The notes under the pieces were generated by a model, which was not told the origin of the DNA, did no database searches, and saw nothing but the letters and a program-made list of their open reading frames with translations. From the NCBI GenBank assembly GCA_001785355.1, contig MFTQ01000021.1:4033-68032 (forward strand): a stretch of DNA of 64,000 bases. Direction: 5' to 3'. Of this stretch, positions 6,541 to 37,583 are shown piece by piece (positions within the stretch are counted from its first letter, which is position 1; each line of letters opens with the position of its first letter). The DNA comes from Candidatus Nomurabacteria bacterium RIFCSPHIGHO2_01_FULL_41_71 (GTDB lineage Bacteria > Patescibacteriota > Minisyncoccia > Phycocordibacterales > UBA9973). The position numbers were made by a program, and so were the translations under genes.

Positions 6541-8301
6541 ATGTTTAATTTAAAGGATTCAATTTCATATATATGGCCAATAATCTCAAAATATAAAAGG
6601 TCTTTTTTCTTTATTTATATTTTGTTTATTTCTAGACCACTTTTATCTAATACTATTGTTCCAATTTTCTACAAAAAAATTATAGATTTAGTTGTTACTC
6701 CAGGTGTTGATAAGTCGTTATTAACAAATTCACTTTTTAAATATGTTGCCATGATTGCTGTATCTTTTGCTATGGCTAATATTTTTATGCGCTGGGGGCA
6801 ATTTCTCGTTACTAGATTTCAATCTAGTGTCATGAAAAATTTAATGGATTTAACTTTTTCTAAACTACAAAATCACTCGTACACATTTTTTGCCGACAGT
6901 TTTTCTGGATCATTGGTAAATAAATCAAAAAAGTTTGTTAAATCGTTTGAAACCGTACACGATATCATTCTTGATAATTTTTGGCAACCATTTATTGCCT
7001 TTTTGTCTATTTTTATAGTGTTTTTTATACAATCTTATCCTATTGCACTGGTCTTTTTTGTAGTTTATCTTTTGTATTTCTTAATTATAATTTCTATGTC
7101 TAAAAAAACAATACAAGCGTATATAGAAAAAGCACAGGCCGATTCAAAAGTTACAGGATACATAGCTGATGCCTTGGTAAATATCTTAGCCACTAAAGCA
7201 TCTTCTGCATCTGCAAGAGAAATTGAAAGTTTTAAGATTGTAACAGCCGAAGAAGATTTTTTACGTTTTAGGGCATGGAATATGGCCAATAAACAACAAA
7301 TTGTGCAATCAATTCTTATTGTTTTTGTTCAAGTTTTCTGTGTATTCTTGGCTGTAGAACTTTGGATTTCTGGTAAAATAACAGCCGGTATGTTTTTACT
7401 AATTCAAAGTTATTCTATAACTCTTGGTAATTATTTTTGGGATTTAGGTAGATCAATGATTAGATTTACTGAAGCAACATCAGATATGAAAGAAATGATT
7501 GATATATTTAAAAAAGTTCCAGATGTACTTGATCCAGAAAAACCAGAGATTTTAAAGATAAAAGATGGAAACTTAGAGTTAAAAGATGTTTCCTTTAATT
7601 ATCTTAATGGTACTGAGGTATTAAATAATTTTTCACTTAAAATTAATAAAGGAGAAAAAGTTGGATTGGTGGGTCATTCCGGTTCTGGAAAATCAACTAT
7701 TACTAAACTCTTAATGCGTTTTGTTGATATATCTGAAGGGGAAATTTTAATTGACGGACAAAACATCAAAAATATAACCCAAGATGATTTAAGAAAAAAT
7801 ATCTCATATATTTCCCAGGAACCTATTTTGTTTCATAGAAGTATAAGAGACAATATTGCTTATAGTAAACCAGAAGCAAATGAAGAACAAATTATAGAGT
7901 CCTCTAAGGCGGCTCACGCAGACGAGTTTATTTCAAGATTAATTATGGGGTACAATACTTTTGTTGGTGAAAGAGGAGTTAAACTCTCCGGCGGAGAGAG
8001 ACAGAGGGTGGCTATAGCGAGAGCAATGTTAAAAGATGCACCAATTCTTATTCTTGATGAAGCGACAAGTTCGTTAGATAGTATTAGCGAGTCTTATATT
8101 CAGGACGCCTTTAATGAGTTAATGAAAGGCAAGACAGCAATAGTGATAGCTCATAGATTGTCCACCGTGCAAAAAATGGACAGGATTATAGTGCTTGATA
8201 AGGGGAAGATAGTGGAAGAAGGAACCCATAAAGAGCTTTTGACCAGAAACGGCTTTTATGCGGATTTATGGAATCATCAAACGGGCGGATTTCTGGAATA
8301 A
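6541..8301 (+). CDS. ABC exporter, fused permease + ATP-binding domain (MsbA-like)
   Basis: 6-TM N-terminal half; Walker A GHSGSGKST, signature LSGGERQRVAIARA, Walker B ILILDEATS. Confidence 0.8.
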   Translation: MFNLKDSISYIWPIISKYKRSFFFIYILFISRPLLSNTIVPIFYKKIIDLVVTPGVDKSLLTNSLFKYVAMIAVSFAMANIFMRWGQFLVTRFQSSVMKNLMDLTFSKLQNHSYTFFADSFSGSLVNKSKKFVKSFETVHDIILDNFWQPFIAFLSIFIVFFIQSYPIALVFFVVYLLYFLIIISMSKKTIQAYIEKAQADSKVTGYIADALVNILATKASSASAREIESFKIVTAEEDFLRFRAWNMANKQQIVQSILIVFVQVFCVFLAVELWISGKITAGMFLLIQSYSITLGNYFWDLGRSMIRFTEATSDMKEMIDIFKKVPDVLDPEKPEILKIKDGNLELKDVSFNYLNGTEVLNNFSLKINKGEKVGLVGHSGSGKSTITKLLMRFVDISEGEILIDGQNIKNITQDDLRKNISYISQEPILFHRSIRDNIAYSKPEANEEQIIESSKAAHADEFISRLIMGYNTFVGERGVKLSGGERQRVAIARAMLKDAPILILDEATSSLDSISESYIQDAFNELMKGKTAIVIAHRLSTVQKMDRIIVLDKGKIVEEGTHKELLTRNGFYADLWNHQTGGFLE

Positions 8302-10701: not shown

Positions 10702-12318
10702 TTACACTATGCAAAAGCGGGATTGGTTTAGTGGTAGAATGCGACCTTCCCAAGGTTGAGACAGGAGTTCGATTCTCCTATCCCGCACCATAAACGAACT
10801 AGACGGTTTTTTAGAAGCTGAAATGCGGGACGCGCGAAGCGCGTCCCAAGGATTCCCGCCGAATTTCCCAAACGAATTCAGAATTTTTGGCGCGCTGGCG
10901 CGCACTAATTTTTCGCCAAGAAGCAGGTTCGAGCCAAAGATTTCTTTGGCACAGACCTTTTTCGCAAAAAGGTCTGTATCCTGTGCGATTCCATTCAGGT
11001 TTTGTGCGACTTTTAGCCAATCGAGTAGCGGTTCGAGCCAATCATTGTGCTTGTGTGAAAGAGAGGTCATTTCTTCTTCGAGCGACTTCTTTTGCAAAAT
11101 CAATTTTGCTTTTTCTACACGATAGGTTTCCTTTTCAATATCTTGGTCAAGGTAAGTATTCAGAAGTCGCTCTAACTTTTGTGAAATGACAGATATTTTG
11201 GTTTCTTTCTCTTTCACACTAGCACCCACGGATTGGGCGGAGTTTTTGAAATCAGCTCGTGCCATTTTTTCCAGTTCCTCCGCCCAATCTCGTGGCAAAG
11301 AAACTTTTTGAATTAGGGATGATAACTGGCGATTAAGTTCTTCTTCCCGAATACAAGGTTGAGAACATTTTACATTTTTGTTTTTCTTTGTGCAGTGATA
11401 ATAAGTGTAATTATGCACATTTCCGTTCTTCTGCTTCTTAACCTTGTATTCGCCAGTTATCATCATTCCACATTCGGTGCAAGATAATAACCCGCAAAAT
11501 GGTTGAGGTTCATTTTTAGATTTTCGTTCGGGTTGTCCGCGGAGTTTCATCACTTTTTGCACCGAATCAAAAAGTTTCTTTGAAATGATTGGCTCGTGCT
11601 TGCCTTCGTGCAATTCTCCCGCATAGTTGAAAAGTCCAGTATAAAAAGGGTTTGAAAGAATAAAAGTCGCACGAGTTTTGTGGATTCTCTTTCCACCTCT
11701 CGAAACGATTCCGTTTTTCGCCAAAAAGTTTGAAATATCTTCCAGTCGTTGATTTCCTTTCGCGTATCTCTCAAAAGCCAAGCGGATAATTTTCGCTTTC
11801 TTCTTTTCCACTACAATCGTTTTTGTTCTACTGTCGTTGATATATCCCAAAGGAGCTTGGCTTGGAAATATTCCCATTCTCACTTTTTGGCGAAGACCTC
11901 GTTTCGTATTTTCTGAAAGAGAATCCACATAGTATTTGCTTTGGACAAATGCCATAGAGAGTGAAAATTTCCCTTGCGGAGTATTCTCAAACCAGTGCGA
12001 AGGGAATTTCATGCTCGCAAGTTTTCCGATGTCGAGTAAGTAGATAATTTGTCCGCCATCCACCGAATTACGGGCTAGACGATCGGGATGCCAACTGACG
12101 ATACCATTTGCCTCACCTCGTTCAATGCGCTTCAGCATTTGCCCGAAAATAGGTCTGCCGGGAATTTTCGCAGATTGTTTTTCGATAAATTCCTCAATGA
12201 CCTCTAAGTTTTGCTCTCGGGCAAATGCCCGCAATTCGGTGAGTTGAGCGTCAATACTCAAAACTTGTTTGTCTTCGACATCGGTGCTCTTGCGAGCATA
12301 CAAAAAGAATTTTTGCAT
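10702..12318 (-). CDS. Large serine recombinase (resolvase/invertase catalytic domain + recombinase domain + Zn-ribbon). 3' end reads antisense through IR-A and tRNA-Gly
   Basis: YARKSTDVEDKQVLSIDAQ catalytic-Ser motif at N-terminus, CTECG...CTKKNKNVKC zinc ribbon, coiled-coil. True stop uncertain because the ORF runs through a GC-rich repeat. Confidence 0.85.
   Translation of the reverse strand: MQKFFLYARKSTDVEDKQVLSIDAQLTELRAFAREQNLEVIEEFIEKQSAKIPGRPIFGQMLKRIERGEANGIVSWHPDRLARNSVDGGQIIYLLDIGKLASMKFPSHWFENTPQGKFSLSMAFVQSKYYVDSLSENTKRGLRQKVRMGIFPSQAPLGYINDSRTKTIVVEKKKAKIIRLAFERYAKGNQRLEDISNFLAKNGIVSRGGKRIHKTRATFILSNPFYTGLFNYAGELHEGKHEPIISKKLFDSVQKVMKLRGQPERKSKNEPQPFCGLLSCTECGMMITGEYKVKKQKNGNVHNYTYYHCTKKNKNVKCSQPCIREEELNRQLSSLIQKVSLPRDWAEELEKMARADFKNSAQSVGASVKEKETKISVISQKLERLLNTYLDQDIEKETYRVEKAKLILQKKSLEEEMTSLSHKHNDWLEPLLDWLKVAQNLNGIAQDTDLFAKKVCAKEIFGSNLLLGEKLVRASAPKILNSFGKFGGNPWDALRASRISASKKPSSSFMVRDRRIELLSQPWEGRILPLNQSRFCIV
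10717..10790 (+). tRNA. tRNA-Gly (anticodon CCC), CCA encoded
   Basis: Cloverleaf folded by hand: acceptor GCGGGAT/ATCCCGC, anticodon loop TTCCCAA, T-arm AGGAG-TTCGATT-CTCCT. Confidence 0.85.
10785..10878. repeat. IR-A: 94-bp perfect inverted repeat, begins in the tRNA-Gly 3' end. Partner at 12545-12638
   Basis: Reverse complement of 10785-10878 equals 12545-12638 base for base. Similarity continues imperfectly ~55 bp further (10879-10935 vs 12481-12544). Confidence 0.9.
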
Positions 12319-12336
12319 ATATTTTTCTTAAAGCGA

Positions 12337-12393
12337 AAATGGCTATTTTAGGTTGAAATCCTAACGTTAGTTAGAAAACTAAAATAGCCATTT
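12337..12393. promoter_or_regulatory. 57-bp perfectly symmetric site (15-bp arms + central 10-bp palindrome ctaacgttag with CG centre) 19 bp upstream of the recombinase start. Candidate recombination site or operator
   Basis: aaatggctattttag-gttgaaatc-ctaacgttag-ttagaaaa-ctaaaatagccattt read directly. Confidence 0.4.
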
Positions 12394-12544
12394 CCGCCAA
12401 CTAACTGATAATGGATTTCAACACAGTTAGTATAGCAAAAATTCTTTTTGTATCCAAAGCAAATACTTTGAATTTGTATCGCACGGGATTTCGAACCTGC
12501 TTCTTGGCGAAAAAACAGTGCGCATCGCCGAAGGCGGTGCTCCA

Positions 12545-12638
12545 AATTCGTTTGGGAAATTCGGCGGGAATCCTTGGGACGCGCTTCGCGCGTCCCGCAT
12601 TTCAGCTTCTAAAAAACCGTCTAGTTCGTTTATGGTGC
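12545..12638. repeat. IR-A': inverted partner of IR-A, contains inverted copy of tRNA-Gly 3' end (ggtgc)
   Basis: See IR-A. Confidence 0.9.
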
Positions 12639-12958
12639 GTTTATTCTACCAAATCAGAACCTATTTTCAAAATCTGTAATCAATGGAGTTCCCCGCGCGC
12701 TACGCGCCTCTGTGCAAAGCACAGAGCTTTCCAAAGTGGAAAGTGCGGGGAACGCAACATCTCCGAACGGCTCAAATGCCAGTAAGTGAGCCGTTCAGTA
12801 AAATGGACGAAGTTTTGCAAAAACTATTTTCTGGGGAAAGGATTTTGCAAAACTTCGGCTAGTGTTTTTGAAATTCGGCGGGCATGCAAATTCCCCGCGC
12901 GGAGGAGGGGTCTGGGGAGGAATCCGCGCGGGCTTTGGATTTTGTTGGGCGGATGGGC
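12635..12958. repeat. IR-B: 324-bp perfect inverted repeat, GC-rich. Partner at 14801-15124
   Basis: Reverse complement equals 14801-15124. Generates identical 57-aa phantom N-termini on ORFs 12786 (+) and 14973 (-). Confidence 0.9.
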
Positions 12959-13010
12959 CACCTTTACTTTTTTAATCAAAAAATCTAGTATATTTTATGG
13001 AGGTGTTGAA

Positions 13011-13397
13011 TTGAAGACTTTCCTGAAGAAAGTCCTGCGATTCAGCATCGCAGGAGGTACCGGAGTTCTCAGCGGCTACGTGGCCCTGTATTCCCTCACC
13101 GAGTTTGTTGGGTGGTGGTATATATGGTCAGCTTTTGTGGCCTTCGTTCTTAACACTGGAGTGACTTTTTACCTCCAGAGGTTCTGGACGTTCAAAAACG
13201 AGAGCCTCAAACCTTTCAGCCCGAAGCAGTTTATCATGTACTCGATGATGACAGCTAGCTTCGTTGGCTCGAATATCATACTGCTTTACCTCTTAGTGGA
13301 GTACGTACATCTCCACTACATGGTAGCGCAGGTGTGTCTGACGGCTCTTTTTTCGGTGTTTAGCTTCGTGCTGACACCTAAGATCTTCACTCGCTAG
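13011..13397 (+). CDS. GtrA-family small membrane protein (polyprenol-sugar flippase-like). TTG start after ggaggtg RBS
   Basis: ~128 aa, 4 TM, FSIAGGTGVLSGY...LNTGVTFYLQRFWTF typical of GtrA family. Upstream part of the 203-aa ORF lies in IR-B and is not credited. Confidence 0.6.
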   Translation: MKTFLKKVLRFSIAGGTGVLSGYVALYSLTEFVGWWYIWSAFVAFVLNTGVTFYLQRFWTFKNESLKPFSPKQFIMYSMMTASFVGSNIILLYLLVEYVHLHYMVAQVCLTALFSVFSFVLTPKIFTR

Positions 13398-13477
13398 AAT
13401 CGGCGTGCTCCGCAAGGACACGCCGATCGCTACTTCTAATAGAAAAAATACTCCAAAAATGATAAAATGAACTAGCT

Positions 13478-14131
13478 ATGGACTCAGAAACTCAAAGACA
13501 ACAAATTGGTAATTCCCTGAAAATAACCACAGAAATTTTTGGAAGTTGTAATGCGGATTACCGAATTCTTGGTTCTGTTTTGTTGGTTGCATATACCAAT
13601 AGAGTTTTTAGACGCATAAATGATGTTGATATTCTCCTAGATATAAAAACTAAAGATTGTGTATTCGAAAAACTAAAAAACAATGGTTTCCAATTTGAGC
13701 CAAAAAAAGTGGCTGGATTTTCTTGGATTGAAGCAAAAAAAGATCAACACTTAGGACTAACCTTTTTTCTTGTTGGTGAATTCAGAAAAGAGTATTTTAC
13801 TTGGCGTTTTATGAAATTTTTTGAACTAAGAATACGAGCTGAATATTTACATCCAACTGAATATAATTTTGAAAATGTAAAATTTATTGGCATTCCCATT
13901 TCGTCTGCTATTGCTGGGATTAGACAATCATTTCTTAATCCGAAAAGAAAAATGGATAAGCAAATTTTAGAAAATGAAGTCAATAAATCTAAAGTAAAAA
14001 TTTACAATAATATTTCTGTTTATATTTTTGGTGTAAAGCTTCCATATTTGTATGATTCATTTTCTTTTCTTTACAATATTTATGGCGGGATACGAGTTAT
14101 GTTTGGTAAAAAGTATGAGGCTTGGGATTAA
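13478..14131 (+). CDS. Pol-beta-superfamily nucleotidyltransferase-like protein
   Basis: ILGSVLLVAY...x10...DVDILLD matches the GS-x(9-13)-DxD NTase motif. No further family assignment possible by eye. Confidence 0.4.
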   Translation: MDSETQRQQIGNSLKITTEIFGSCNADYRILGSVLLVAYTNRVFRRINDVDILLDIKTKDCVFEKLKNNGFQFEPKKVAGFSWIEAKKDQHLGLTFFLVGEFRKEYFTWRFMKFFELRIRAEYLHPTEYNFENVKFIGIPISSAIAGIRQSFLNPKRKMDKQILENEVNKSKVKIYNNISVYIFGVKLPYLYDSFSFLYNIYGGIRVMFGKKYEAWD

Positions 14132-14138
14132 ATAATTT

Positions 14139-14747
14139 ATGATTACATGGATAATAATTTGGTTATTTTTTTGGACTAGCGCATTAGGTTTTACTAACTA
14201 TCTTTTTAAAAAACATGGGATTACTTATTACGAAAAATCTTGGCAACACACTATTTTTTTTATAATCCTCACACTAATCCTTTTTGTTGTTTATCAAAAT
14301 CAGTTTTTCGTATATTTTAATAATTTTTCCCTATATCATTTATTGATTATCCTGCTCTTATTTATACTGTGGCTTTCTGTCCCAACTCTTTATAAAAATG
14401 ATTATTATGCCAAAAAAGAAAGGTTTGGTTATCAGTTGCCAAAATTTTTTGAAATATTTTTCCAAGACATTTGCTTTTTAGGTGGCTTACTGACCTTTGG
14501 GATTTCTCCGACAATGTTTGGTTTGGTGTTTTTCGTCGTTCATATTCCAGCAGTATTTCTCCTTCCTAAAAAATTTGCCCTCCTGCCTATATTTGGTTCA
14601 CTTTTTGGAGGGCTAATTTTGGCCCATTTACAATCTCAAGGGATAATAGGATTTTTAGTCACATTATTTATACATTTATCATTTTGGGCTACTCTACACT
14701 ATGCTCTACAGAAAAATATTTTAGGCATTACTCCATTAAAAAGATAA
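14139..14747 (+). CDS. Polytopic membrane protein, unknown function (cargo of the IR-B cassette)
   Basis: 6-7 hydrophobic helices; very AT-rich relative to the flanking repeats. Confidence 0.4.
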   Translation: MITWIIIWLFFWTSALGFTNYLFKKHGITYYEKSWQHTIFFIILTLILFVVYQNQFFVYFNNFSLYHLLIILLLFILWLSVPTLYKNDYYAKKERFGYQLPKFFEIFFQDICFLGGLLTFGISPTMFGLVFFVVHIPAVFLLPKKFALLPIFGSLFGGLILAHLQSQGIIGFLVTLFIHLSFWATLHYALQKNILGITPLKR

Positions 14748-14800
14748 TATTTGTATCTCGGCTTTGCCGAGATTTCAATATTTGAATTTGATTTCTTAAT

Positions 14801-15124
14801 GCCCATCCGCCCAACAAAATCCAAAGCCCGCGCGGATTCCTCCCCAGACCCCTCCTCCGCGCGGGGAATTTGCATGCCCGCCGAATTTCAAAAACACTAG
14901 CCGAAGTTTTGCAAAATCCTTTCCCCAGAAAATAGTTTTTGCAAAACTTCGTCCATTTTACTGAACGGCTCACTTACTGGCATTTGAGCCGTTCGGAGAT
15001 GTTGCGTTCCCCGCACTTTCCACTTTGGAAAGCTCTGTGCTTTGCACAGAGGCGCGTAGCGCGCGGGGAACTCCATTGATTACAGATTTTGAAAATAGGT
15101 TCTGATTTGGTAGAATAAACGCAC
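14801..15124. repeat. IR-B': inverted partner of IR-B
   Basis: See IR-B. Confidence 0.9.
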
Positions 15125-15206: not shown

Positions 15207-15440
15207 ATGCAACATGTAGAAATTTATTCGACCCCTTCTTGTCATTTTTGCCATATGGCCAAGGAATTTTTTAAAGAAAAAAACGTGCCATTTACGGATT
15301 ATGATGTGGCTTCCGATGTTTCAAAAAGGCAGGAAATGATGGAGAAGAGCGGACAGATGGGTGTTCCGGTTATCGTTATAGGAAATGAACTTGTGGTGGG
15401 CTTCAATAAGGCGCTTATCTCCAAACTGCTTGGGATTTAG
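15207..15440 (+). CDS. Glutaredoxin/NrdH-like small redox protein
   Basis: VEIYSTPSCHFCHMAKEFF...GVPVIVIG thioredoxin-fold CxxC protein. Start moved to MQHVEIY. TTGACT-17-TATAAT promoter-like hexamers at 15171-15199. Confidence 0.65.
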   Translation: MQHVEIYSTPSCHFCHMAKEFFKEKNVPFTDYDVASDVSKRQEMMEKSGQMGVPVIVIGNELVVGFNKALISKLLGI

Positions 15441-15445
15441 GCTAT

Positions 15446-15520
15446 GTCCTCGTAGTTAAACGGATATAACGACTCCGTCCTAAGGAGTAATTGTAGGTTC
15501 AATTCCTGCCGAGGACACCA
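15446..15520 (+). tRNA. tRNA-Arg (anticodon CCT), CCA encoded
   Basis: Acceptor GTCCTCG/CGAGGAC, anticodon loop GTCCTAA, T-arm GTAGG-TTCAATT-CCTGC. Confidence 0.8.
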
Positions 15521-15597
15521 CAACCAAACTTTTGCTTTTGTCAGAAGAATTTTCGCGCGCTTCACGAAGCGAAGCGTAAGGTGGGATAGAGTTAAAT

Positions 15598-15807
15598 TCA
15601 ATCCGGCGATTTTTCAAAAACAGGTTCGAGCCAAATAATATTGCCTTTTTCTAATTCGGTCATTTTCTCCTCCAACGACTTCTTGCGGGAGAGAAGCCCA
15701 GCCTTCTCTGCAAGGTACTCATCTTGCTCTATATCCTCGTCAATAGACCGGACTTGTTTGTCTTCAATATCGGTTGATTTGCGAGCGTATAAGAGGTATT
15801 TAAGCAT
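15598..15807 (-). pseudogene. Internally deleted remnant of a large serine recombinase (N-terminal 23 aa fused to ~45 aa of the C-terminal coiled-coil)
   Basis: MLKYLLYARKSTDIEDKQVRSID matches the rec-1 N-terminus. EKAGLLSRKKSLEEKMTELEKGNIIWLEP matches rec-1 EKAKLILQKKSLEEEMTSLSHKHNDWLEP. Upstream DNA (15580-15630) resembles the inner part of IR-A (caggttcgagccaaa). Confidence 0.75.
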
Positions 15808-15884
15808 CGGTGTATTATACCACCTTGCTTTAGATGTGTTAATCTAATATAATCTCATATATCTAATATAATAGATTATAAGAC

Positions 15885-16934
15885 ATGAATTACAATAAAC
15901 GAATTAAGAATATACCACAAAATCTATGGGTATTCATCAATCAAATTGATGAATTAAAAGGCCGATGGATTGGTGGAGCCGAAATAAATCCACAAGCACT
16001 TGGCCGATTAAAACGTTCCGTTTTGGTTACGTCGACTGGCGCCTCCACTCGTATTGAAGGAGCCAAACTTTCCGACGAAGATATTGAAAAAATGATGCGT
16101 GGACTTTCTATGCAAAAATTTGCCGACCGCGACAAGCAAGAAGTGCAAGGATATTATGAACTTCTTGAAAATGTATTTAACTCTTACAACAAGATACCAT
16201 TTTCAGAAAGTAGCATTCAACATCTTCATAAGGAAATTTTAAAATATGTTGAGAAAGATAAATTTCATCGCGGAGAATACAAAAAAACTGAAAACAGAGT
16301 TGAAATGGTAAATGAAGTGGGTCAATCTATAGGTATTTTATTTGATACCACACCTGCCTGGCTCACACCGAAAGAAATGCAAGAATTATTCGAATGGACT
16401 AAAAAATCTCTCTCTTTAAAAGAAATTCATCCATTAATAATTATTGGAAATTTTATTGTGGAATTTCTTAATATCCACCCATTTCAAGATGGCAATGGTA
16501 GACTTTCACGCGTTCTTACAAATTTATTAATGCTCCAAGCTGGTTACGCATACATGCCGTATGTCTCGCATGAGAAATTGATTGAAGATAATAAGGCGGA
16601 ATATTATGTAGCTCTTAGAAAAAGTCAGAAAACTTTAAAAACCGATAATCCGAATGTTGTGCCTTGGCTTGAATTCTTTTTCAATGTTCTGCTTACACAA
16701 GCAAAACAAGCAATTGAGTTGCTGTCAAAAGAAAATATTGATAAACTTCTTTCCCCCAAACAACTTTTAGTGTGGCTCCATCTTAGTAATGTTGGGGAAG
16801 CCACGCCTAGAGACATATCTTTAAAAACAAAAGTTGCTCGCCCAACCGTGTCTCAAGCACTCGATACTCTTTTGCGTCTCAAGAAAGTTGAACGTATTGG
16901 ACAAGGACGAACGACGAGGTATAGGAAAATATAA
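15885..16934 (+). CDS. Fic/DOC family protein (AMPylation-type) with C-terminal winged helix
   Basis: Canonical Fic motif HPFQDGNGRLSRVLTNLLMLQAGY. Confidence 0.85.
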   Translation: MNYNKRIKNIPQNLWVFINQIDELKGRWIGGAEINPQALGRLKRSVLVTSTGASTRIEGAKLSDEDIEKMMRGLSMQKFADRDKQEVQGYYELLENVFNSYNKIPFSESSIQHLHKEILKYVEKDKFHRGEYKKTENRVEMVNEVGQSIGILFDTTPAWLTPKEMQELFEWTKKSLSLKEIHPLIIIGNFIVEFLNIHPFQDGNGRLSRVLTNLLMLQAGYAYMPYVSHEKLIEDNKAEYYVALRKSQKTLKTDNPNVVPWLEFFFNVLLTQAKQAIELLSKENIDKLLSPKQLLVWLHLSNVGEATPRDISLKTKVARPTVSQALDTLLRLKKVERIGQGRTTRYRKI

Positions 16935-17007
16935 AATATGTATAACCACTCAGGAAAAACTGGCTCTAAGTGCTGGATTTGTATGAAATTTATGCTAATA
17001 TACCCAA

Positions 17008-17265
17008 ATGGATCCGGAATCCAAAAAGCTCTTGGAAGAGAATTTGAGGCTTTCGCAAGAGAATAATGTTATTTTGCTTAAGCTCAAGCGCTCGATGCAG
17101 GTAAGGCGTTTTGTGAGTATAATTTATTGGACACTCATTGTAGGCTCGGCAGTGGGGGCTTATTATTTCATCCAGCCCTACATAGATCAGATGGTAAACA
17201 TTTATGGCGGGGCCAAAGATGACCTCGAAAATTTCAACCAGCTTTTTCAGAATTTGAAAAATTAA
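17008..17265 (+). CDS. Small hypothetical protein with one TM segment
   Basis: ORF only. Confidence 0.3.
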   Translation: MDPESKKLLEENLRLSQENNVILLKLKRSMQVRRFVSIIYWTLIVGSAVGAYYFIQPYIDQMVNIYGGAKDDLENFNQLFQNLKN

Positions 17266-17279
17266 TAAGATAAAAGATT

Positions 17280-17355
17280 GCCTGGGTAGCTCAGTCAGTA
17301 GAGCATTCCCCTGAAGAGGGAAGGGTCGGCAGTGCGATCCTGCCCCCAGGCACCA
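17280..17355 (+). tRNA. tRNA-Phe (anticodon GAA), CCA encoded
   Basis: Acceptor GCCTGGG/CCCAGGC, anticodon stem TTCCC/GGGAA with loop CTGAAGA. Confidence 0.85.
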
Positions 17356-17364
17356 AATTTTAGT

Positions 17365-17865
17365 TTAAATAGACTTTACTCGGATGACATTTTTCTTGTC
17401 TTTGTCCACTTTCTGGAGCTTGATGGTAAGGAGTCCGTGTCTCTCCACCGCTTCTACTTCTTCAGGCTCTATTTCTTGAGGAAGAACGATGGTACGGGAA
17501 AATTTGCCCCAGTAAAGCTCTCTGACGAAATAATTATCTTCATCGACATTGCGATTTTCTCCACGCTTGCCCTGAATGGTAACCATGTCTCTCGCTATGG
17601 TAAGCTCTAGATCTTCCGGTTTTACTCCGGCCACCATGGCTTGGATTACGATATCGGATGCTGTCTGATATACATCTATAGTGAGTTCTGCTTCATCATT
17701 CTCTTCTTCAATCCAGTTGCCACCCCCTTGCCCGTTTTTCTTTTCCAGCTTGGTTACGTGCTTACTGGGAGAAACTTCTTCCGGCCCTTCTTCCAAGCGC
17801 ATTGTTCCGGTTAATTTTTCAAAAAAAGTTCTTTTTCTATTTTCTTTTTCCATAATTTTTTTCAA
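17365..17865 (-). CDS. Hsp20/alpha-crystallin small heat-shock protein
   Basis: ACD core ...GLLTIKLQK, AxxxNGVL-like region. Confidence 0.8.
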   Translation of the reverse strand: MKKIMEKENRKRTFFEKLTGTMRLEEGPEEVSPSKHVTKLEKKNGQGGGNWIEEENDEAELTIDVYQTASDIVIQAMVAGVKPEDLELTIARDMVTIQGKRGENRNVDEDNYFVRELYWGKFSRTIVLPQEIEPEEVEAVERHGLLTIKLQKVDKDKKNVIRVKSI

Positions 17866-35822: not shown

Positions 35823-37583
35823 TTGATAAAGAGCGCAGGAAGATTTTGCTTAAAAGAAAAAAGTTGGCTATTATATAAGTATAATCACATGCGTAAGAAT
35901 AAAGATGAAAAACCTTATAAGAATGAGTATCTGATATACAATCGGAAAAGCACGGACGATCAAGATAACCAAAAAAACTCTATCTCATACCAAACGATTG
36001 AAGCAATTAAGTTTGCAAAAAGAGAAAAATTATCAATTGCAAAAGTTGATATTCAAGGATTTTGTAAGGGAGGAATAATAAGCGAAAAACATACTGGCTT
36101 CAAAGAAGACAATAAACTCACAATCGGCGCTGATGGCCGAAGCATACAATATCAAATTAACAGACCGAAATTTGAGCAGTTAGTCCATGCACTAATAAAT
36201 GGCGAATATAGAGGTGTCATATTTCTTTGTTGGGATAGAGCTAGCCGTAATAAAAATGACGACAACATTATACGCAAATTGATGAAATTTAATGATTTAG
36301 ATATTCGGTTCGTTCAAGCAAACTATGATCATACGAGTGCCGGAGAGCTACACATGGATGTTGATGGAATGTTTGCACAACACCACTCAAGGAATACTAG
36401 CGAGAAAGTAACAAATACAAACAGGAAGCTTCGTGCAGAAGGCGTATGCACCTATAAGGCCCCAATAGGATACTTAAACACTGGAGACCCTCGTAATAAA
36501 CCTTTTGATCCAGAGCGTGCTTCGTTGGTCAAACAACTATTTGAAAAATATGCAGAAGACACATGGAGTTTAGCTGACCTTGCCCGTTGGGCAAACGATA
36601 ATGGTTTGACCATGCGACCTGTTCGCCGAAAAAGAACTACCGAAGAAATGCTTCGTGATGAGGAAGTAAAAATTGAGCCGGTTGCCCGTCCTATTACTTT
36701 CAATCATATCCACAAGATACTTACTAACTTATTCTATATTGGAAAGGTGTTGGGGAATAATGGAGTGTATGTGAAAAGTATTAGTCATGAGGCGCTTGTT
36801 GAAGAAGATTTATTTTATAGGGTGCAGGGTCTTTTGAATAAGAAAAGAGTCAGCGTTCATTACAAAAATAAACTTTATTTCGCTTACAGAGGACTTATAC
36901 GCTGTGGTCATTGTGAGCGTGTGTATACTCCTTACAAAAATAAAATCAAACAAAAAGAGTATTACGGAGCGCGTTGTATGAAAAATTGCATTAACACAAA
37001 AAGAAACATTGATGTTGATTTTATTGAGCAAAAAGTCGGTGCAATCATGTTTAATCTTTCTTTTACCAAAGAAGAAAAAGCTGACATTGACAGCCAAGTG
37101 CGAGATGAAGTTTCTACACTTGAAGACAAGCGCGTAGCTCAAATTAAGGCCATTGATCAAGAGAAGAAAAAACTCAACGAGGATTTATCATACTTGCGTA
37201 AGAATAAACTTACCTTGCTCAAAAATGGCGTTTACACTGGACAGGATTATCTCAATGAAGAATCCGATATAGCAAAAAAACTTGAAAACCTCCGAGAGCA
37301 AGAGAAGTCAAATAATGTTTCAATGCAGGAAGTGGTCAAAGATGTGGTATTTCTTTCCGAACTTCTAGAAGACGCGTATCTGTATTACACTTTGGCAAAT
37401 CCCACAGAAAAACAACAAATTATTACAAAAGTATTTTCCGAACTTTTACTATCCGGAGAAACCTTGAATTATAAGTGTAGAAATGGATTTAAGGTGTTTG
37501 AAAACAAAAAATCTCTCTTATGTGACCCTGCGGGGAGTCGAACCCCGGTTAACGGATTGAAAACCCGTTGTCCTAACCATTAG
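35823..37583 (+). CDS. Large serine recombinase (integrase) 2. 3' end reads antisense through tRNA-Glu
   Basis: YLIYNRKSTDDQDNQKNSISYQ catalytic-Ser motif, recombinase domain, CGHCERVY...CMKNC zinc ribbon, long coiled-coil. Confidence 0.85.
   Translation: MIKSAGRFCLKEKSWLLYKYNHMRKNKDEKPYKNEYLIYNRKSTDDQDNQKNSISYQTIEAIKFAKREKLSIAKVDIQGFCKGGIISEKHTGFKEDNKLTIGADGRSIQYQINRPKFEQLVHALINGEYRGVIFLCWDRASRNKNDDNIIRKLMKFNDLDIRFVQANYDHTSAGELHMDVDGMFAQHHSRNTSEKVTNTNRKLRAEGVCTYKAPIGYLNTGDPRNKPFDPERASLVKQLFEKYAEDTWSLADLARWANDNGLTMRPVRRKRTTEEMLRDEEVKIEPVARPITFNHIHKILTNLFYIGKVLGNNGVYVKSISHEALVEEDLFYRVQGLLNKKRVSVHYKNKLYFAYRGLIRCGHCERVYTPYKNKIKQKEYYGARCMKNCINTKRNIDVDFIEQKVGAIMFNLSFTKEEKADIDSQVRDEVSTLEDKRVAQIKAIDQEKKKLNEDLSYLRKNKLTLLKNGVYTGQDYLNEESDIAKKLENLREQEKSNNVSMQEVVKDVVFLSELLEDAYLYYTLANPTEKQQIITKVFSELLLSGETLNYKCRNGFKVFENKKSLLCDPAGSRTPVNGLKTRCPNH

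What the first reader, a model, noticed from the sequence alone, without database searches (positions are those of the whole stretch)
15446..17355. Degenerate sister element: tRNA-Arg + internally deleted recombinase + Fic protein, ending at tRNA-Phe
The 69-aa ORF at 15598-15807 fuses the first 23 residues of a rec-1-like recombinase (YARKSTDIEDKQVRSID) to ~45 residues of its C-terminal coiled-coil, an internal deletion of ~370 codons. DNA at 15580-15630 resembles the inner IR-A region. The adjacent intact gene is a canonical Fic protein (HPFQDGNGR). Together with element 1 this makes a tandem array of recombinase-borne cargo modules between tRNA-Gly and tRNA-Phe.
Basis: seen in the sequence. 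Interest (0 to 1): 0.55.

Follow-up and report, generated by a model that had tools for sequence, protein, structure and literature searches.

The report
Decayed recombinase element keeping a Fic gene
Next to a tRNA-Arg gene of a Nomurabacteria (CPR) genome lies the immobile wreck of a serine-recombinase mobile element that has lost its recombinase and most of its cargo but still keeps an intact, selected Fic (SoFic-like, probably anti-phage) gene; this is an ordinary fate for such elements.

Summary
ORF 15598-15807(-) joins residues 1-23 of a rec-1-like large serine recombinase (LSR) to its coiled-coil (rec-1 residues 390-433), a loss of 366 codons. The DNA from tRNA-Arg to the ORF is a homologue of element 1's IR-A arm. 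Fic is canonical.

In dozens of related species tRNA-Arg(CCT) sits about 20-60 bp from the 85-aa gene, and none of 80 species carries Fic there. Groundwater contigs (L177-L181, L097) carry a fuller version: tRNA end, IR-A, LSR, divergent Fic (95% aa), AEP-TOTE helicase and more cargo, then IR-A'. They are 89.7% identical in DNA to window 15740-16965.

The boundary is wrong. The relic ends at 16965, inside the eighth codon of a lost helicase gene. The 85-aa gene and tRNA-Phe are core genome.

The relic carries three deletions and has no inverted partner arm or attR. It is present in all 24 contigs of this population that carry the identical 85-aa protein, whereas element 1 is polymorphic. Fic is under strong purifying selection (dN/dS about 0.05) and matches the SoFic defence model.

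Verdict: a new member of a known kind, a grounded integrative element with a retained defence gene. Interest is modest.

The parts
15446..15520 (+). tRNA-Arg(CCT), the integration target. It is intact, and the terminal CA of its CCA is probably supplied by the element.
   Evidence: ARAGORN; Rfam tRNA 59.7 bits. The junction ...GAGGACACCA|CAACCAAAC parallels element 1's ...CCCGCACCA|TAAACGAAC.
15516..15642 (.). Homologue of the IR-A arm (the element-side arm of attL). It contains the GC-rich hairpin 15552-15568 and ends at the GGTTCGAGCC motif.
   Evidence: nhmmer E 1.7e-27 with a profile that included this sequence as one of six rows; alignment A1 with element 1 and the L177/L179 arms; terminator-like hairpin on the - strand.
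15465..15638 (-). Out-of-frame relic of the LSR C-terminal tail. It reads antisense through the tRNA-Arg 3' half.
   Evidence: tblastn: P0127 residues 90-153, 53% identity, frame -2; P0128 residues 111-143, 76%; rec-1 residues 460-528.
15623..15634 (.). Single GGTTCGAGCCAA motif, the junction of deletion 2 (about 104 nt lost between two direct copies, causing a frameshift).
   Evidence: The motif occurs twice in rec-1 (10926 and 11030, family D7) and twice in L177. The three-way alignment A2 shows the gap. P0127 residues 62-89 are missing.
15598..15807 (-). 69-aa remnant ORF: LSR residues 1-23 (with YARKST, which carries the catalytic Ser) fused in frame to the coiled-coil segment. The junction of deletion 1 is at about 15738-15741.
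   Evidence: BLASTP; no Pfam domain; coil 76% identical to P0127; identical on 24 contigs.
15814..15842 (-). Sigma-70-like promoter of the former recombinase gene (TTAACA-17-TGnTATAAT).
   Evidence: Consensus scan, 11 of 12 matches. This is a consensus match only.
15824..15884 (+). Fic promoter region with the palindrome TAATCTAATATA / TATAATAGATTA (15840-15878). It is conserved upstream of Fic in every genomic context examined.
   Evidence: DNA homology with unrelated Fic loci begins at 15824-15841; upstream alignment of 24 loci; inverted repeat I6.
15885..16934 (+). Intact Fic gene (349 aa). It is class II-like (STRIEG inhibitory motif at 54-59, HPFQDGNGRLSR at 198-209) with a C-terminal winged-helix domain, and it is SoFic-like.
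   Evidence: Pfam Fic 9.5e-16 plus wHTH families; PADLOC SoFic 8.3e-42; PDB 8uqu 3.4e-33; dN/dS 0.05.
16942..16965 (+). Relic of the first 8 codons of an AEP-TOTE primase-helicase gene (ATG changed to ATA). The right end of the relic (deletion 3) is at 16965/16966.
   Evidence: 29 of 31 nt identical to L177 2652-2682. Homology stops at 16965, while L177 continues into a 709-aa AEP-TOTE/ResIII ORF.
16966..17007 (+). Native spacer and promoter of the core 85-aa gene. It is not part of the element.
   Evidence: Aligns with the tRNA-Arg-to-85-aa-gene spacers of L027, L022, L063 and L072.

Best explanation
Window ~15519-16965 is the fixed, immobile relic of an integrative element of the same LSR family as element 1.

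Origin (inferred from relatives). The element integrated at the 3' end of tRNA-Arg(CCT), with the recombinase gene converging on the tRNA and overlapping it. It carried a divergently transcribed defence module, Fic plus an AEP-TOTE primase-helicase, and probably more cargo.

Decay. The alignments show three deletions; their mechanisms are inferred.
1. Deletion 1 is an in-frame loss of LSR codons 24-389, probably at an ATTGAC (Ile-Asp) microhomology.
2. Deletion 2 is a loss of about 104 nt between two direct GGTTCGAGCCAA copies. It shifts the frame.
3. Deletion 3 removed everything from codon 9 of the helicase gene to the right end of the element, including IR-A', the IR-B arms and attR.

Consequence. 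With no recombinase and only one att-type arm, the relic cannot excise or invert.

What still works. The tRNA is intact. Fic keeps its own conserved promoter and palindrome and is under strong purifying selection. It most likely acts as an auto-inhibited AMP-transferase of the SoFic type, an abortive-infection toxin. Its winged-helix domain possibly represses its own promoter through the palindrome. All of this function is inferred. The 69-aa ORF is most likely a pseudogene product.
For: 1. It is an insertion.
- ValRS-PrsW-Hsp20-tRNAPhe-85aa-tRNAArg(CCT)-Grx-tRNAGly-DivIC-LepA is conserved in dozens of Paceibacteria species.
- The 85-aa gene lies 22-62 bp from tRNA-Arg in more than 10 of them.
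- None of 80 loci has Fic or an LSR at this position.

2. A fuller version exists.
- L177 reads: tRNA 3' end, IR-A (38-190), LSR(-), 75-bp spacer, Fic(+), AEP-TOTE helicase, DUF6155, Bles03, RecQ-like helicase, IR-A' (7719-7871; 153 nt, 84% complementary).
- Window 15740-16965 is 89.65% identical to L177 1459-2682.
- Other Fic copies also sit beside rec-1-like LSRs: L100, L109, L112, L129 and L131.

3. The left arm is homologous to IR-A of element 1 and of L177/L179.

4. The deletions are supported. No IR-A' or IR-B homologue exists in 15400-17400.

5. It is fixed.
- All contigs with the exact Fic (10 places shown of 23 read) and all with the exact 85-aa protein (24 contigs read) carry the 69-aa ORF plus Fic.
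- Element 1, by contrast, is absent in L001/L007.

6. Fic is functional. dN/dS is 0.05 with dS 0.43 against L177, and 0.05-0.08 against three other loci. The motifs are intact. It matches the SoFic model.

7. Such relics are common. C-terminal LSR fragments abut tRNA 3' ends in L191, L193 and L194.
Against: - No genome with a full-length LSR plus Fic at tRNA-Arg(CCT) itself was found. The fuller relative L177 sits at a different, unidentified tRNA.
- The L177 recombinase is frameshifted in 4 of 5 assemblies.
- The coil segment is only about 57% identical in DNA to L177, against 91% for Fic. The ancestor was therefore mosaic relative to L177, or the two halves have different histories.
- The right junction shows no recognisable attR or duplicated tRNA end, so the original right end cannot be placed to the base.
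- Expression and activity of Fic are untested.
- The remnant ORF keeps a strong consensus promoter and an open frame, which is not what long neutral decay would predict.
Confidence: 0.85

Rival explanations
1. Two-element chimera. The tRNA-proximal part (IR-A arm, coil and tail, closest to P0127/P0128-type LSRs) and the block of LSR N-terminus plus Fic (closest to L177) come from two different elements. They were joined by recombination at the ATTGAC microhomology. On this view Fic was never cargo of the element that integrated at tRNA-Arg.
For: - Identity to L177 is discontinuous: Fic 91%, post-Fic 93.5%, N-terminal piece 72%, coil about 57%.
- The coil is 76% identical in amino acids to P0127, against about 40% to L179 as estimated by eye, not computed.
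- The ~90% identity block ends exactly at the deletion junction, 15740.
Against: - With dS 0.43, unconstrained DNA is expected to be about 65-70% identical, so 72% (N-terminus) and about 57% (a gapped 127-nt alignment) are compatible with one ancestor and neutral decay of the pseudogene.
- C-terminal halves and att arms of LSRs are expected to diverge with target tRNA, while N-termini and cargo are shared.
- The divergent LSR-Fic arrangement with the same spacer length recurs in L177, L097, L100 and L109.
Confidence: 0.12
2. The 69-aa ORF is a functional micro-protein. The N-terminal 23 residues plus the LSR coiled-coil motif would be expressed from the retained recombinase promoter and would interfere with, or regulate, related recombinases such as rec-1 of element 1.
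For: - The frame is open across the junction.
- There is an 11/12 consensus promoter.
- The sequence is identical on 24 contigs.
- An independent in-frame N-terminus-to-coil fusion exists: P0126/L195, with its left breakpoint at the same Ser-Ile-Asp/Glu codon.
Against: - The in-frame junctions follow directly from microhomology between Ile-Asp/Glu codons in the same phase.
- The search with the 69-aa query can only find in-frame fusions, which is an ascertainment bias.
- No diverged orthologue exists on which to test selection.
- Deletion 2 truncates the protein right after the coil.
- No family of similar short proteins emerged. The other short hits are C-terminal fragments.
Confidence: 0.05
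3. Artefact or ancestral arrangement. Either the internal deletion is an assembly error, or Fic is an old core gene beside which a recombinase fragment landed.
For: Metagenome assemblies often break or mis-join at the repeats of these elements. Many contigs end at the inverted-repeat arms.
Against: - The same 69-aa ORF plus Fic arrangement occurs in independent ENA, JGI and NCBI assemblies from different samples.
- The region contains no repeat that could cause a mis-join.
- Fic is absent from this locus in all 80 related species, and elsewhere it occupies many unrelated contexts.
Confidence: 0.02

Closest known systems
Decayed ('grounded') integrative elements and prophage remnants beside tRNA genes, such as degenerate tycheposon remnants in Prochlorococcus tRNA islands (bioRxiv 10.1101/2020.12.28.424599; review PMC6379469)
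   Same: - Integration at a tRNA gene.
- A fragmented integrase left next to the tRNA.
- Cargo retained after loss of mobility.
- Neighbouring tRNA genes act as repeated landing sites, with different accessory genes in different species.
   Different: - The recombinase is a large serine recombinase, not the usual tyrosine integrase. In the tycheposon set only 27 of 937 elements have an LSR.
- No displaced tRNA fragment or direct repeat marks the far end.
- The host is a reduced-genome CPR bacterium.
Element 1 of the same window (10784-15124) and the L177-type element (Rifle groundwater contigs)
   Same: - Same LSR family: Resolvase + Recombinase + Zn_ribbon_recom + coiled-coil, with a tail read antisense through the tRNA.
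- Homologous IR-A arm next to the tRNA 3' end.
- The GGTTCGAGCC motif.
- The divergent cargo promoter.
   Different: - The sister lacks the catalytic, recombinase and zinc-ribbon domains, the inverted partner arm IR-A', the IR-B arms and attR.
- It is fixed, whereas element 1 shows an empty site in L001/L007 and a possible inversion isomer in L184.
Phage and ICE large serine integrases (phiC31, Bxb1, TP901-1, TnpX, CcrAB type; from general knowledge)
   Same: The intact relatives have the same domain architecture and, in element 1, short att cores: attB ..CCCGCAC|TTTT.. and attP ..AAACGCAC|CATAAAC.., which share only CGCAC.
   Different: - The targets are tRNA 3' ends.
- The arms are long inverted repeats (95-324 nt).
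- An inverted attP-like site lies inside the element.
- None of this remains functional in the sister.
SoFic, a single-gene Fic anti-phage defence (PADLOC model; PMC12249575)
   Same: Fic fold with a canonical HxFx(D/E)GNGRxxR motif, a C-terminal domain, and a match to the SoFic HMM at E 8.3e-42. SoFic is reported to cause abortive infection by AMPylation (PMC12249575).
   Different: - Only a distant sequence relative of the solved SoFic (PDB 3eqx/3zcn, E about 6e-6).
- In about a third of loci it is paired with an AEP-TOTE helicase.
- No AS1-like antitoxin was identified.
- Defence activity is untested.

Membership tests
Large serine recombinase (applied to the 69-aa ORF) | Complete N-terminal resolvase catalytic domain (PF00239) | tested here: not met
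   No Pfam hit. Only residues 1-23, including YARKST, remain.
Large serine recombinase (applied to the 69-aa ORF) | Recombinase domain (PF07508) and zinc beta-ribbon (PF13408) | tested here: not met
   Both are absent. They fall inside the deleted codons 24-389. rec-1 and the L179 LSR have both.
Large serine recombinase (applied to the 69-aa ORF) | Coiled-coil segment homologous to that of family members | tested here: met
   50% identity to rec-1 residues 390-433, E 2e-11; 76% to P0127. The ORF is therefore derived from the family but is not a functional member.
rec-1-type tRNA-3'-end LSR element (provisional family: element 1, L177, L112, L191/L193, L194) | LSR gene convergent with a tRNA gene and overlapping its 3' end in antisense | tested here: met
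   The tail relic 15638-15465 reads through tRNA-Arg. The same geometry is seen in element 1 and in L191, L193 and L194.
rec-1-type tRNA-3'-end LSR element (provisional family) | IR-A arm between the tRNA and the LSR 3' end | tested here: met
   nhmmer E 1.7e-27 at 15516-15642; the profile included this sequence as one of six rows. Alignment A1.
rec-1-type tRNA-3'-end LSR element (provisional family) | Inverted partner arm (IR-A') and distal arms or attR | tested here: not met
   Only one IR-A hit in the region. No similarity to IR-B. Homology to L177 stops at 16965.
rec-1-type tRNA-3'-end LSR element (provisional family) | Presence/absence polymorphism (mobility) | tested here: not met
   Present in all contigs with the exact Fic or the exact 85-aa protein. 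Absent only in other species.
Fic/DOC AMP-transferases | Catalytic motif HxFx(D/E)GNGRxxR within a Fic fold | tested here: met
   HPFQDGNGRLSR at residues 198-209; Pfam PF02661 9.5e-16; PDB Fido protein 8uqu 3.4e-33.
Fic/DOC AMP-transferases | Inhibitory helix motif (S/T)xxxE(G/N), with N-terminal placement defining class II (from general knowledge) | tested here: met
   STRIEG at residues 54-59, read from the translation. Only the motif was checked; no structure was modelled.
Fic/DOC AMP-transferases | AMPylation activity on a target protein | not testable with these tools
   Needs biochemistry.
SoFic anti-phage defence | Match to the SoFic profile | tested here: met
   PADLOC PDLC03963, E 8.3e-42, residues 44-346.
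SoFic anti-phage defence | Protection against phage by abortive infection | not testable with these tools
   Needs phage-challenge experiments. The host is uncultured.
tRNA-associated genomic island (Islander-type definition, PMC4383910) | Island bounded by the intact tRNA gene and a displaced tRNA fragment or direct repeat | tested here: not met
   No direct repeat of the tRNA-Arg 3' end between 15521 and 17300. By contrast, L028, L029, L076 and L085 show such duplicated tRNA-Arg ends.
tRNA-associated genomic island (Islander-type definition, PMC4383910) | Insertion at the tRNA 3' end relative to an empty site in relatives | tested here: met
   The gap is 1487 bp in the window, against spacers of 22-62 bp in L022, L024, L027, L031, L037, L042, L063, L072 and others.

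The most novel reading that the evidence does not exclude
The relic may not be entirely dead. The in-frame 69-aa fusion of the LSR N-terminus to its coiled-coil motif, still behind a near-consensus promoter, could be a domesticated decoy. It would bind the coiled-coil of related recombinases, such as rec-1 (50% identical in that motif) or incoming elements, and so modulate their integration, excision or inversion. That would be a recombinase-derived immunity or directionality factor. An independent fusion with the same left breakpoint (P0126/L195) would then reflect convergent selection rather than a microhomology hotspot.
Probability: 0.05. Interest if true: 0.6.

Novelty: new member of a known kind. 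Interest (0 to 1): 0.33.

Why it matters
- The relic is a clean, datable example of how a reduced-genome CPR bacterium gains an accessory gene, probably for defence. The gene arrives on a serine-recombinase element at a tRNA 3' end, and the element then decays until only the selected gene remains.
- Together with element 1 and the L177-type contigs it gives three stages of one element family: active and polymorphic, frameshifted, and wrecked.
- It shows that the tRNA-Gly and tRNA-Arg genes in a widely conserved Paceibacteria synteny block are recurrent landing sites.
- The sister adds little that is conceptually new. Its main practical value is as comparative material for defining the att arms and cargo repertoire of this LSR family.

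Tried and rejected
1. A word-indexed homologue search with the 69-aa ORF returned only itself.
2. The first three Fic homologue contexts (P0010, P0026, P0067) showed no recombinase. This briefly suggested that Fic was not cargo. The 80-locus metagenome scan overturned that view.
3. I suspected a site-specific right end, because AEP-TOTE is cut within its first 0-8 codons in the window, L098, L101 and L116. I rejected this as unproven: other loci are cut at codons 36, 43, 57 and 175.
4. I looked for an attR-like core or a duplicated tRNA-Arg end at the right junction and found none.
5. The conserved sequence upstream of many Fic copies was tested as an RNA gene. Rfam at gathering threshold and ARAGORN found nothing. 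By eye it looks like a 3' tRNA-Ser fragment.
6. I tried to compare Fic conservation with housekeeping genes of the same genomes. No shared genes exist between those loci and the window, so horizontal transfer of Fic is suggested but not shown. ValRS is at most 72% identical in the nearest species, while Fic reaches 88% in other genomes.
7. TOTE literature search: the library held nothing relevant.
8. No structure prediction was run, because it would not change the verdict.
Full report
**The observation**

ARAGORN and Rfam place tRNA-Arg(CCT) at 15446-15520(+) and tRNA-Phe(GAA) at 17280-17355(+). The 69-aa ORF at 15598-15807(-) reads MLKYLLYARKSTDIEDKQVRSIDEDIEQDEYLAEKAGLLSRKKSLEEKMTELEKGNIIWLEPVFEKSPD.

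Against the 538-aa recombinase of element 1 (rec-1; 10702-12318, -; Pfam Resolvase + Recombinase + Zn_ribbon_recom), BLASTP gives two separate matches:
- N-terminus to N-terminus, E 3e-10.
- Residues 22-65 to rec-1 390-433, 50% identity, E 2e-11.

The ORF is therefore an in-frame fusion that lacks rec-1 residues 24-389. The ORF has no Pfam domain. DNA identity to rec-1 is only 63-74%, so this is a diverged family member and not a recent copy.

The rec-1 tail (residues 460-528) matches 15638-15465 in another frame and runs antisense through tRNA-Arg. Closer relatives came from an exhaustive HMMER search and make this clear:
- P0127 matches the coil at 76% identity in frame -1. Its residues 90-153 match at 53% in frame -2.
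- P0128 residues 111-143 match at 76%.

The missing piece lies between two direct copies of GGTTCGAGCCAA. Both copies are present in rec-1 (10926, 11030) and in L177, but only one is present here, at 15623 (family D7; alignment A2). This second deletion of about 104 nt shifts the frame and explains why the ORF stops just after WLEP.

The stretch 15516-15642 is homologous to the IR-A arm that lies between the tRNA and the recombinase 3' end in element 1 and in other elements (alignment A1; nhmmer E 1.7e-27). This sequence was one of the six rows used to build that profile, so the E-value is partly circular. An independent but weaker blastn match supports the same point (15609-15635 to 10908-10938, 84% over 31 nt).

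The junction ...GAGGACACCA|CAACCAAAC mirrors element 1's ...CCCGCACCA|TAAACGAAC.

**It is an insertion, and it does not reach tRNA-Phe**

A ValRS-anchored scan of one genome per species returned 80 loci. The order ValRS-PrsW-Hsp20-tRNAPhe-85aa-tRNAArg(CCT)-Grx-tRNAGly-DivIC-LepA recurs in dozens of them.
- In L022, L024, L027, L031, L037, L042, L063, L072 and others, tRNA-Arg lies 22-62 bp from the 85-aa gene.
- None of the 80 loci has Fic or a recombinase at this position.

The window's 1487-bp gap is therefore lineage-specific, and the 85-aa gene and tRNA-Phe are core genome. Window 16966-17007 aligns with the native spacers, which have the form tRNA ... TTTGATTTTT ... TTTTGCTAKTAT ... ATG.

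Other species carry other accessory genes at the same slot: GGDEF, a SAM methyltransferase, a histidine phosphatase and a GNAT. Some show inserts of 130-200 bp that end in a duplicated tRNA-Arg 3' end (L028, L029, L076, L085). The site is a recurrent landing place.

**A fuller version with Fic exists**

The organism is a Candidatus Nomurabacteria bacterium from Rifle groundwater. The first three Fic homologue contexts had no recombinase. A metagenome scan with Fic then returned 80 loci, and several have a rec-1-like LSR beside Fic: L097, L100, L109, L112, L129 and L131.

The closest Fic (95% aa, P0122) lies on contigs L177-L181. L177 reads:
- partial tRNA 3' end;
- IR-A (38-190);
- LSR(-);
- 75-bp spacer;
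- Fic(+);
- a 709-aa AEP-TOTE primase/ResIII helicase (Pfam 9e-80);
- DUF6155, Bles03 and a RecQ/DpdF-like helicase;
- IR-A' (7719-7871; 153 nt, 84% complementary);
- IR-B-like sequence.

The LSR is an uninterrupted 428-aa ORF up to the contig end in L179. In L177, L180, L181 and L097 it is frameshifted.

Window 15740-16965 aligns to L177 1459-2682 at 89.65%. By segment:

| Segment | Identity to L177 |
|---|---|
| LSR N-terminal piece | 72% |
| Spacer | 79.5% |
| Fic | 91.3% |
| 31 nt after Fic | 93.5% |

Those last 31 nt contain the first eight codons of the AEP-TOTE gene, with ATG changed to ATA (16942-16965). Homology stops at 16965, while L177 continues into the helicase. This is the third deletion. 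It removed the rest of the cargo and the whole right end.

In 29 of 86 Fic loci AEP-TOTE follows Fic directly. Truncated relics occur at various codons. Fic plus AEP-TOTE is thus a recurrent two-gene module that often loses the helicase.

**Status in the population**

All contigs that encode the exact Fic (10 places shown, from 23 contigs read) and the exact 85-aa protein (24 contigs read) carry the 69-aa ORF plus Fic. The sources are independent ENA, JGI and NCBI assemblies.

Element 1 is different. It is absent in L001/L007, where tRNA-Gly is followed directly by the Grx promoter. That comparison gives attB ..CCCGCAC|TTTTTTTT.., attL, attR and an internal inverted attP-like site. The sister is therefore fixed and element 1 is still polymorphic. 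With no recombinase, no inverted partner arm and no attR, the sister cannot move by itself.

**What still works**

Fic is intact.
- HPFQDGNGRLSR lies at residues 198-209 and the inhibitory-helix motif STRIEG at 54-59.
- It has a C-terminal winged-helix domain.
- Its best solved relative is 8uqu.
- It matches the PADLOC SoFic model at 8.3e-42. SoFic is reported to cause abortive infection by AMPylation (PMC12249575).
- dN/dS is 0.05 against L177 (dS 0.43) and 0.05-0.08 against three other loci.

A promoter region with the palindrome TAATCTAATATA/TATAATAGATTA (15840-15878) is conserved upstream of Fic in every context examined. DNA homology with unrelated Fic loci begins at about 15824. Autoregulation through the winged helix is an inference.

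The former recombinase promoter scores 11 of 12, so the 69-aa ORF may still be transcribed.

**How the deletions arose (inferred)**

The first junction lies between Ile-Asp codons. The N-terminal side reads ...RSID and the coil side of relatives reads ...YID-EDIE, which suggests an ATTGAC microhomology.

An independent case exists. P0126 on L195 is a 159-aa in-frame fusion derived from an L193-type LSR at tRNA-Arg(TCT). Its junction lies in a CCATYGAR microhomology (SIE/AIE). The shared left breakpoint looks like a microhomology hotspot. The in-frame outcome follows from the codon phase and from the way the search finds such fusions.

C-terminal LSR relics abutting tRNA 3' ends are common on long contigs: L191, L193 and L194.

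**Comparison and verdict**

The sister works like any grounded integrative element. The tRNA target is intact, the integrase is fragmented and one selected cargo gene is retained. Comparable cases are the degenerate tycheposon remnants (bioRxiv 10.1101/2020.12.28.424599) and grounded prophages (PMC6379469).

It differs in two ways. The recombinase is an LSR, and the family has unusual inverted-repeat arms. Neither feature is functional here.

An unresolved point is whether the ancestor was a single element or a recombinant of two. The coil is about 57% identical in DNA to L177, yet it is 76% identical in amino acids to P0127.

The right boundary and the 'tandem array' wording are not. Novelty: a new member of a known kind. 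Interest is modest.

Noticed in passing
window 10784-15124; L001 9160-9330; L184: Element 1 is polymorphic. L001/L007 show the empty site, with tRNA-Gly ..CCCGCAC|TTTTTTTTGAATAAAG.. The window has attL at ~10788, attR at ~15124 and an inverted attP-like site at ~12635, where the IR-A' and IR-B arms abut. L184 carries the IR-B-flanked cargo (GtrA, 217-aa and 202-aa genes) in the opposite orientation. However, a k141 assembly cannot phase a 324-nt repeat.
   Followed up: partly
L017-L096 (e.g. L020, L023, L025, L034, L061, L071, L093): Within an otherwise conserved gene order, the single tRNA-Arg(CCT) gene, and likewise tRNA-Gly(CCC), flips orientation between species. Where tRNA-Arg is flipped, the larger insertions lie on its 3' side (L023, L025: about 2 kb).
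   Followed up: partly
L028 15880-16090, L029 12575-12775, L076 9558-9738, L085 3380-3576: Inserts of 130-200 bp after tRNA-Arg end in a duplicated tRNA-Arg 3' end and contain an inverted T-arm-like piece. They look like att footprints of elements that have otherwise vanished.
   Followed up: no
window 15840-15878 and 24 other Fic loci: A palindromic promoter region (AATCTAATAT...ATATTAGATT) is almost invariant upstream of this Fic family in all genomic contexts. It may be an operator for the protein's own winged-helix domain.
   Followed up: partly
L099, L103, L108, L109, L115, L118-L122, L126-L132, L177 etc.: In 29 of 86 loci Fic is followed at +8 nt by an AEP-TOTE primase/ResIII helicase gene. 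Several loci keep only 0-175 codons of it. In L098, L101 and L116 the stump is joined directly to the 3' end of a tRNA on the opposite strand.
   Followed up: partly
L195 (P0126); L193: An independent in-frame internal deletion of a related LSR joins the N-terminal 24 aa to the coil and tail. Its left breakpoint is at the same Ser-Ile-Asp/Glu codon as in the window, at a CCATYGAR microhomology.
   Followed up: yes
window 10702-10790; L191 5400-5472; L193 5637-5709; L194 5386-5459: In this LSR family the ORF regularly runs antisense through the 3' part of the target tRNA gene. The last ~10-25 codons are therefore dictated by tRNA sequence (SAGIEP-like peptides).
   Followed up: partly
window 35925-37367: A second, distant LSR (23.5% identity to rec-1) lies next to tRNA-Glu(TTC) and tRNA-Ser(CGA). 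A counterpart occurs in L043 beside tRNA-Glu.
   Followed up: no
L017 6048-6737, L021 14056-14679, L072 5471-6130, L076 9816-10471, L096 15590-16228: A gene of about 207-229 aa with an HTH-like N-terminus (it appears split into two ORFs in L076) recurs on the 5' side of tRNA-Arg, between it and Grx. It has no Pfam match (only L021 was scanned). It may be another mobile gene, perhaps of homing-endonuclease type.
   Followed up: partly
L099 11028-11362, L107 6452-6835, L112 8007-8374, L113 5759-6011: Inverted pairs of tRNA-Ser genes (GCT and an odd 'ACT' copy) lie near Fic. In L112 the GCT copy is followed by an IR-A-like arm and an LSR.
   Followed up: partly
More than 40 distinct Fic clusters are at least 85% identical to the window's Fic. 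The nearest species representative has ValRS at only 72%. This suggests horizontal spread or unusually strong constraint. It could not be tested, because the Fic loci share no housekeeping genes with the window.
   Followed up: partly
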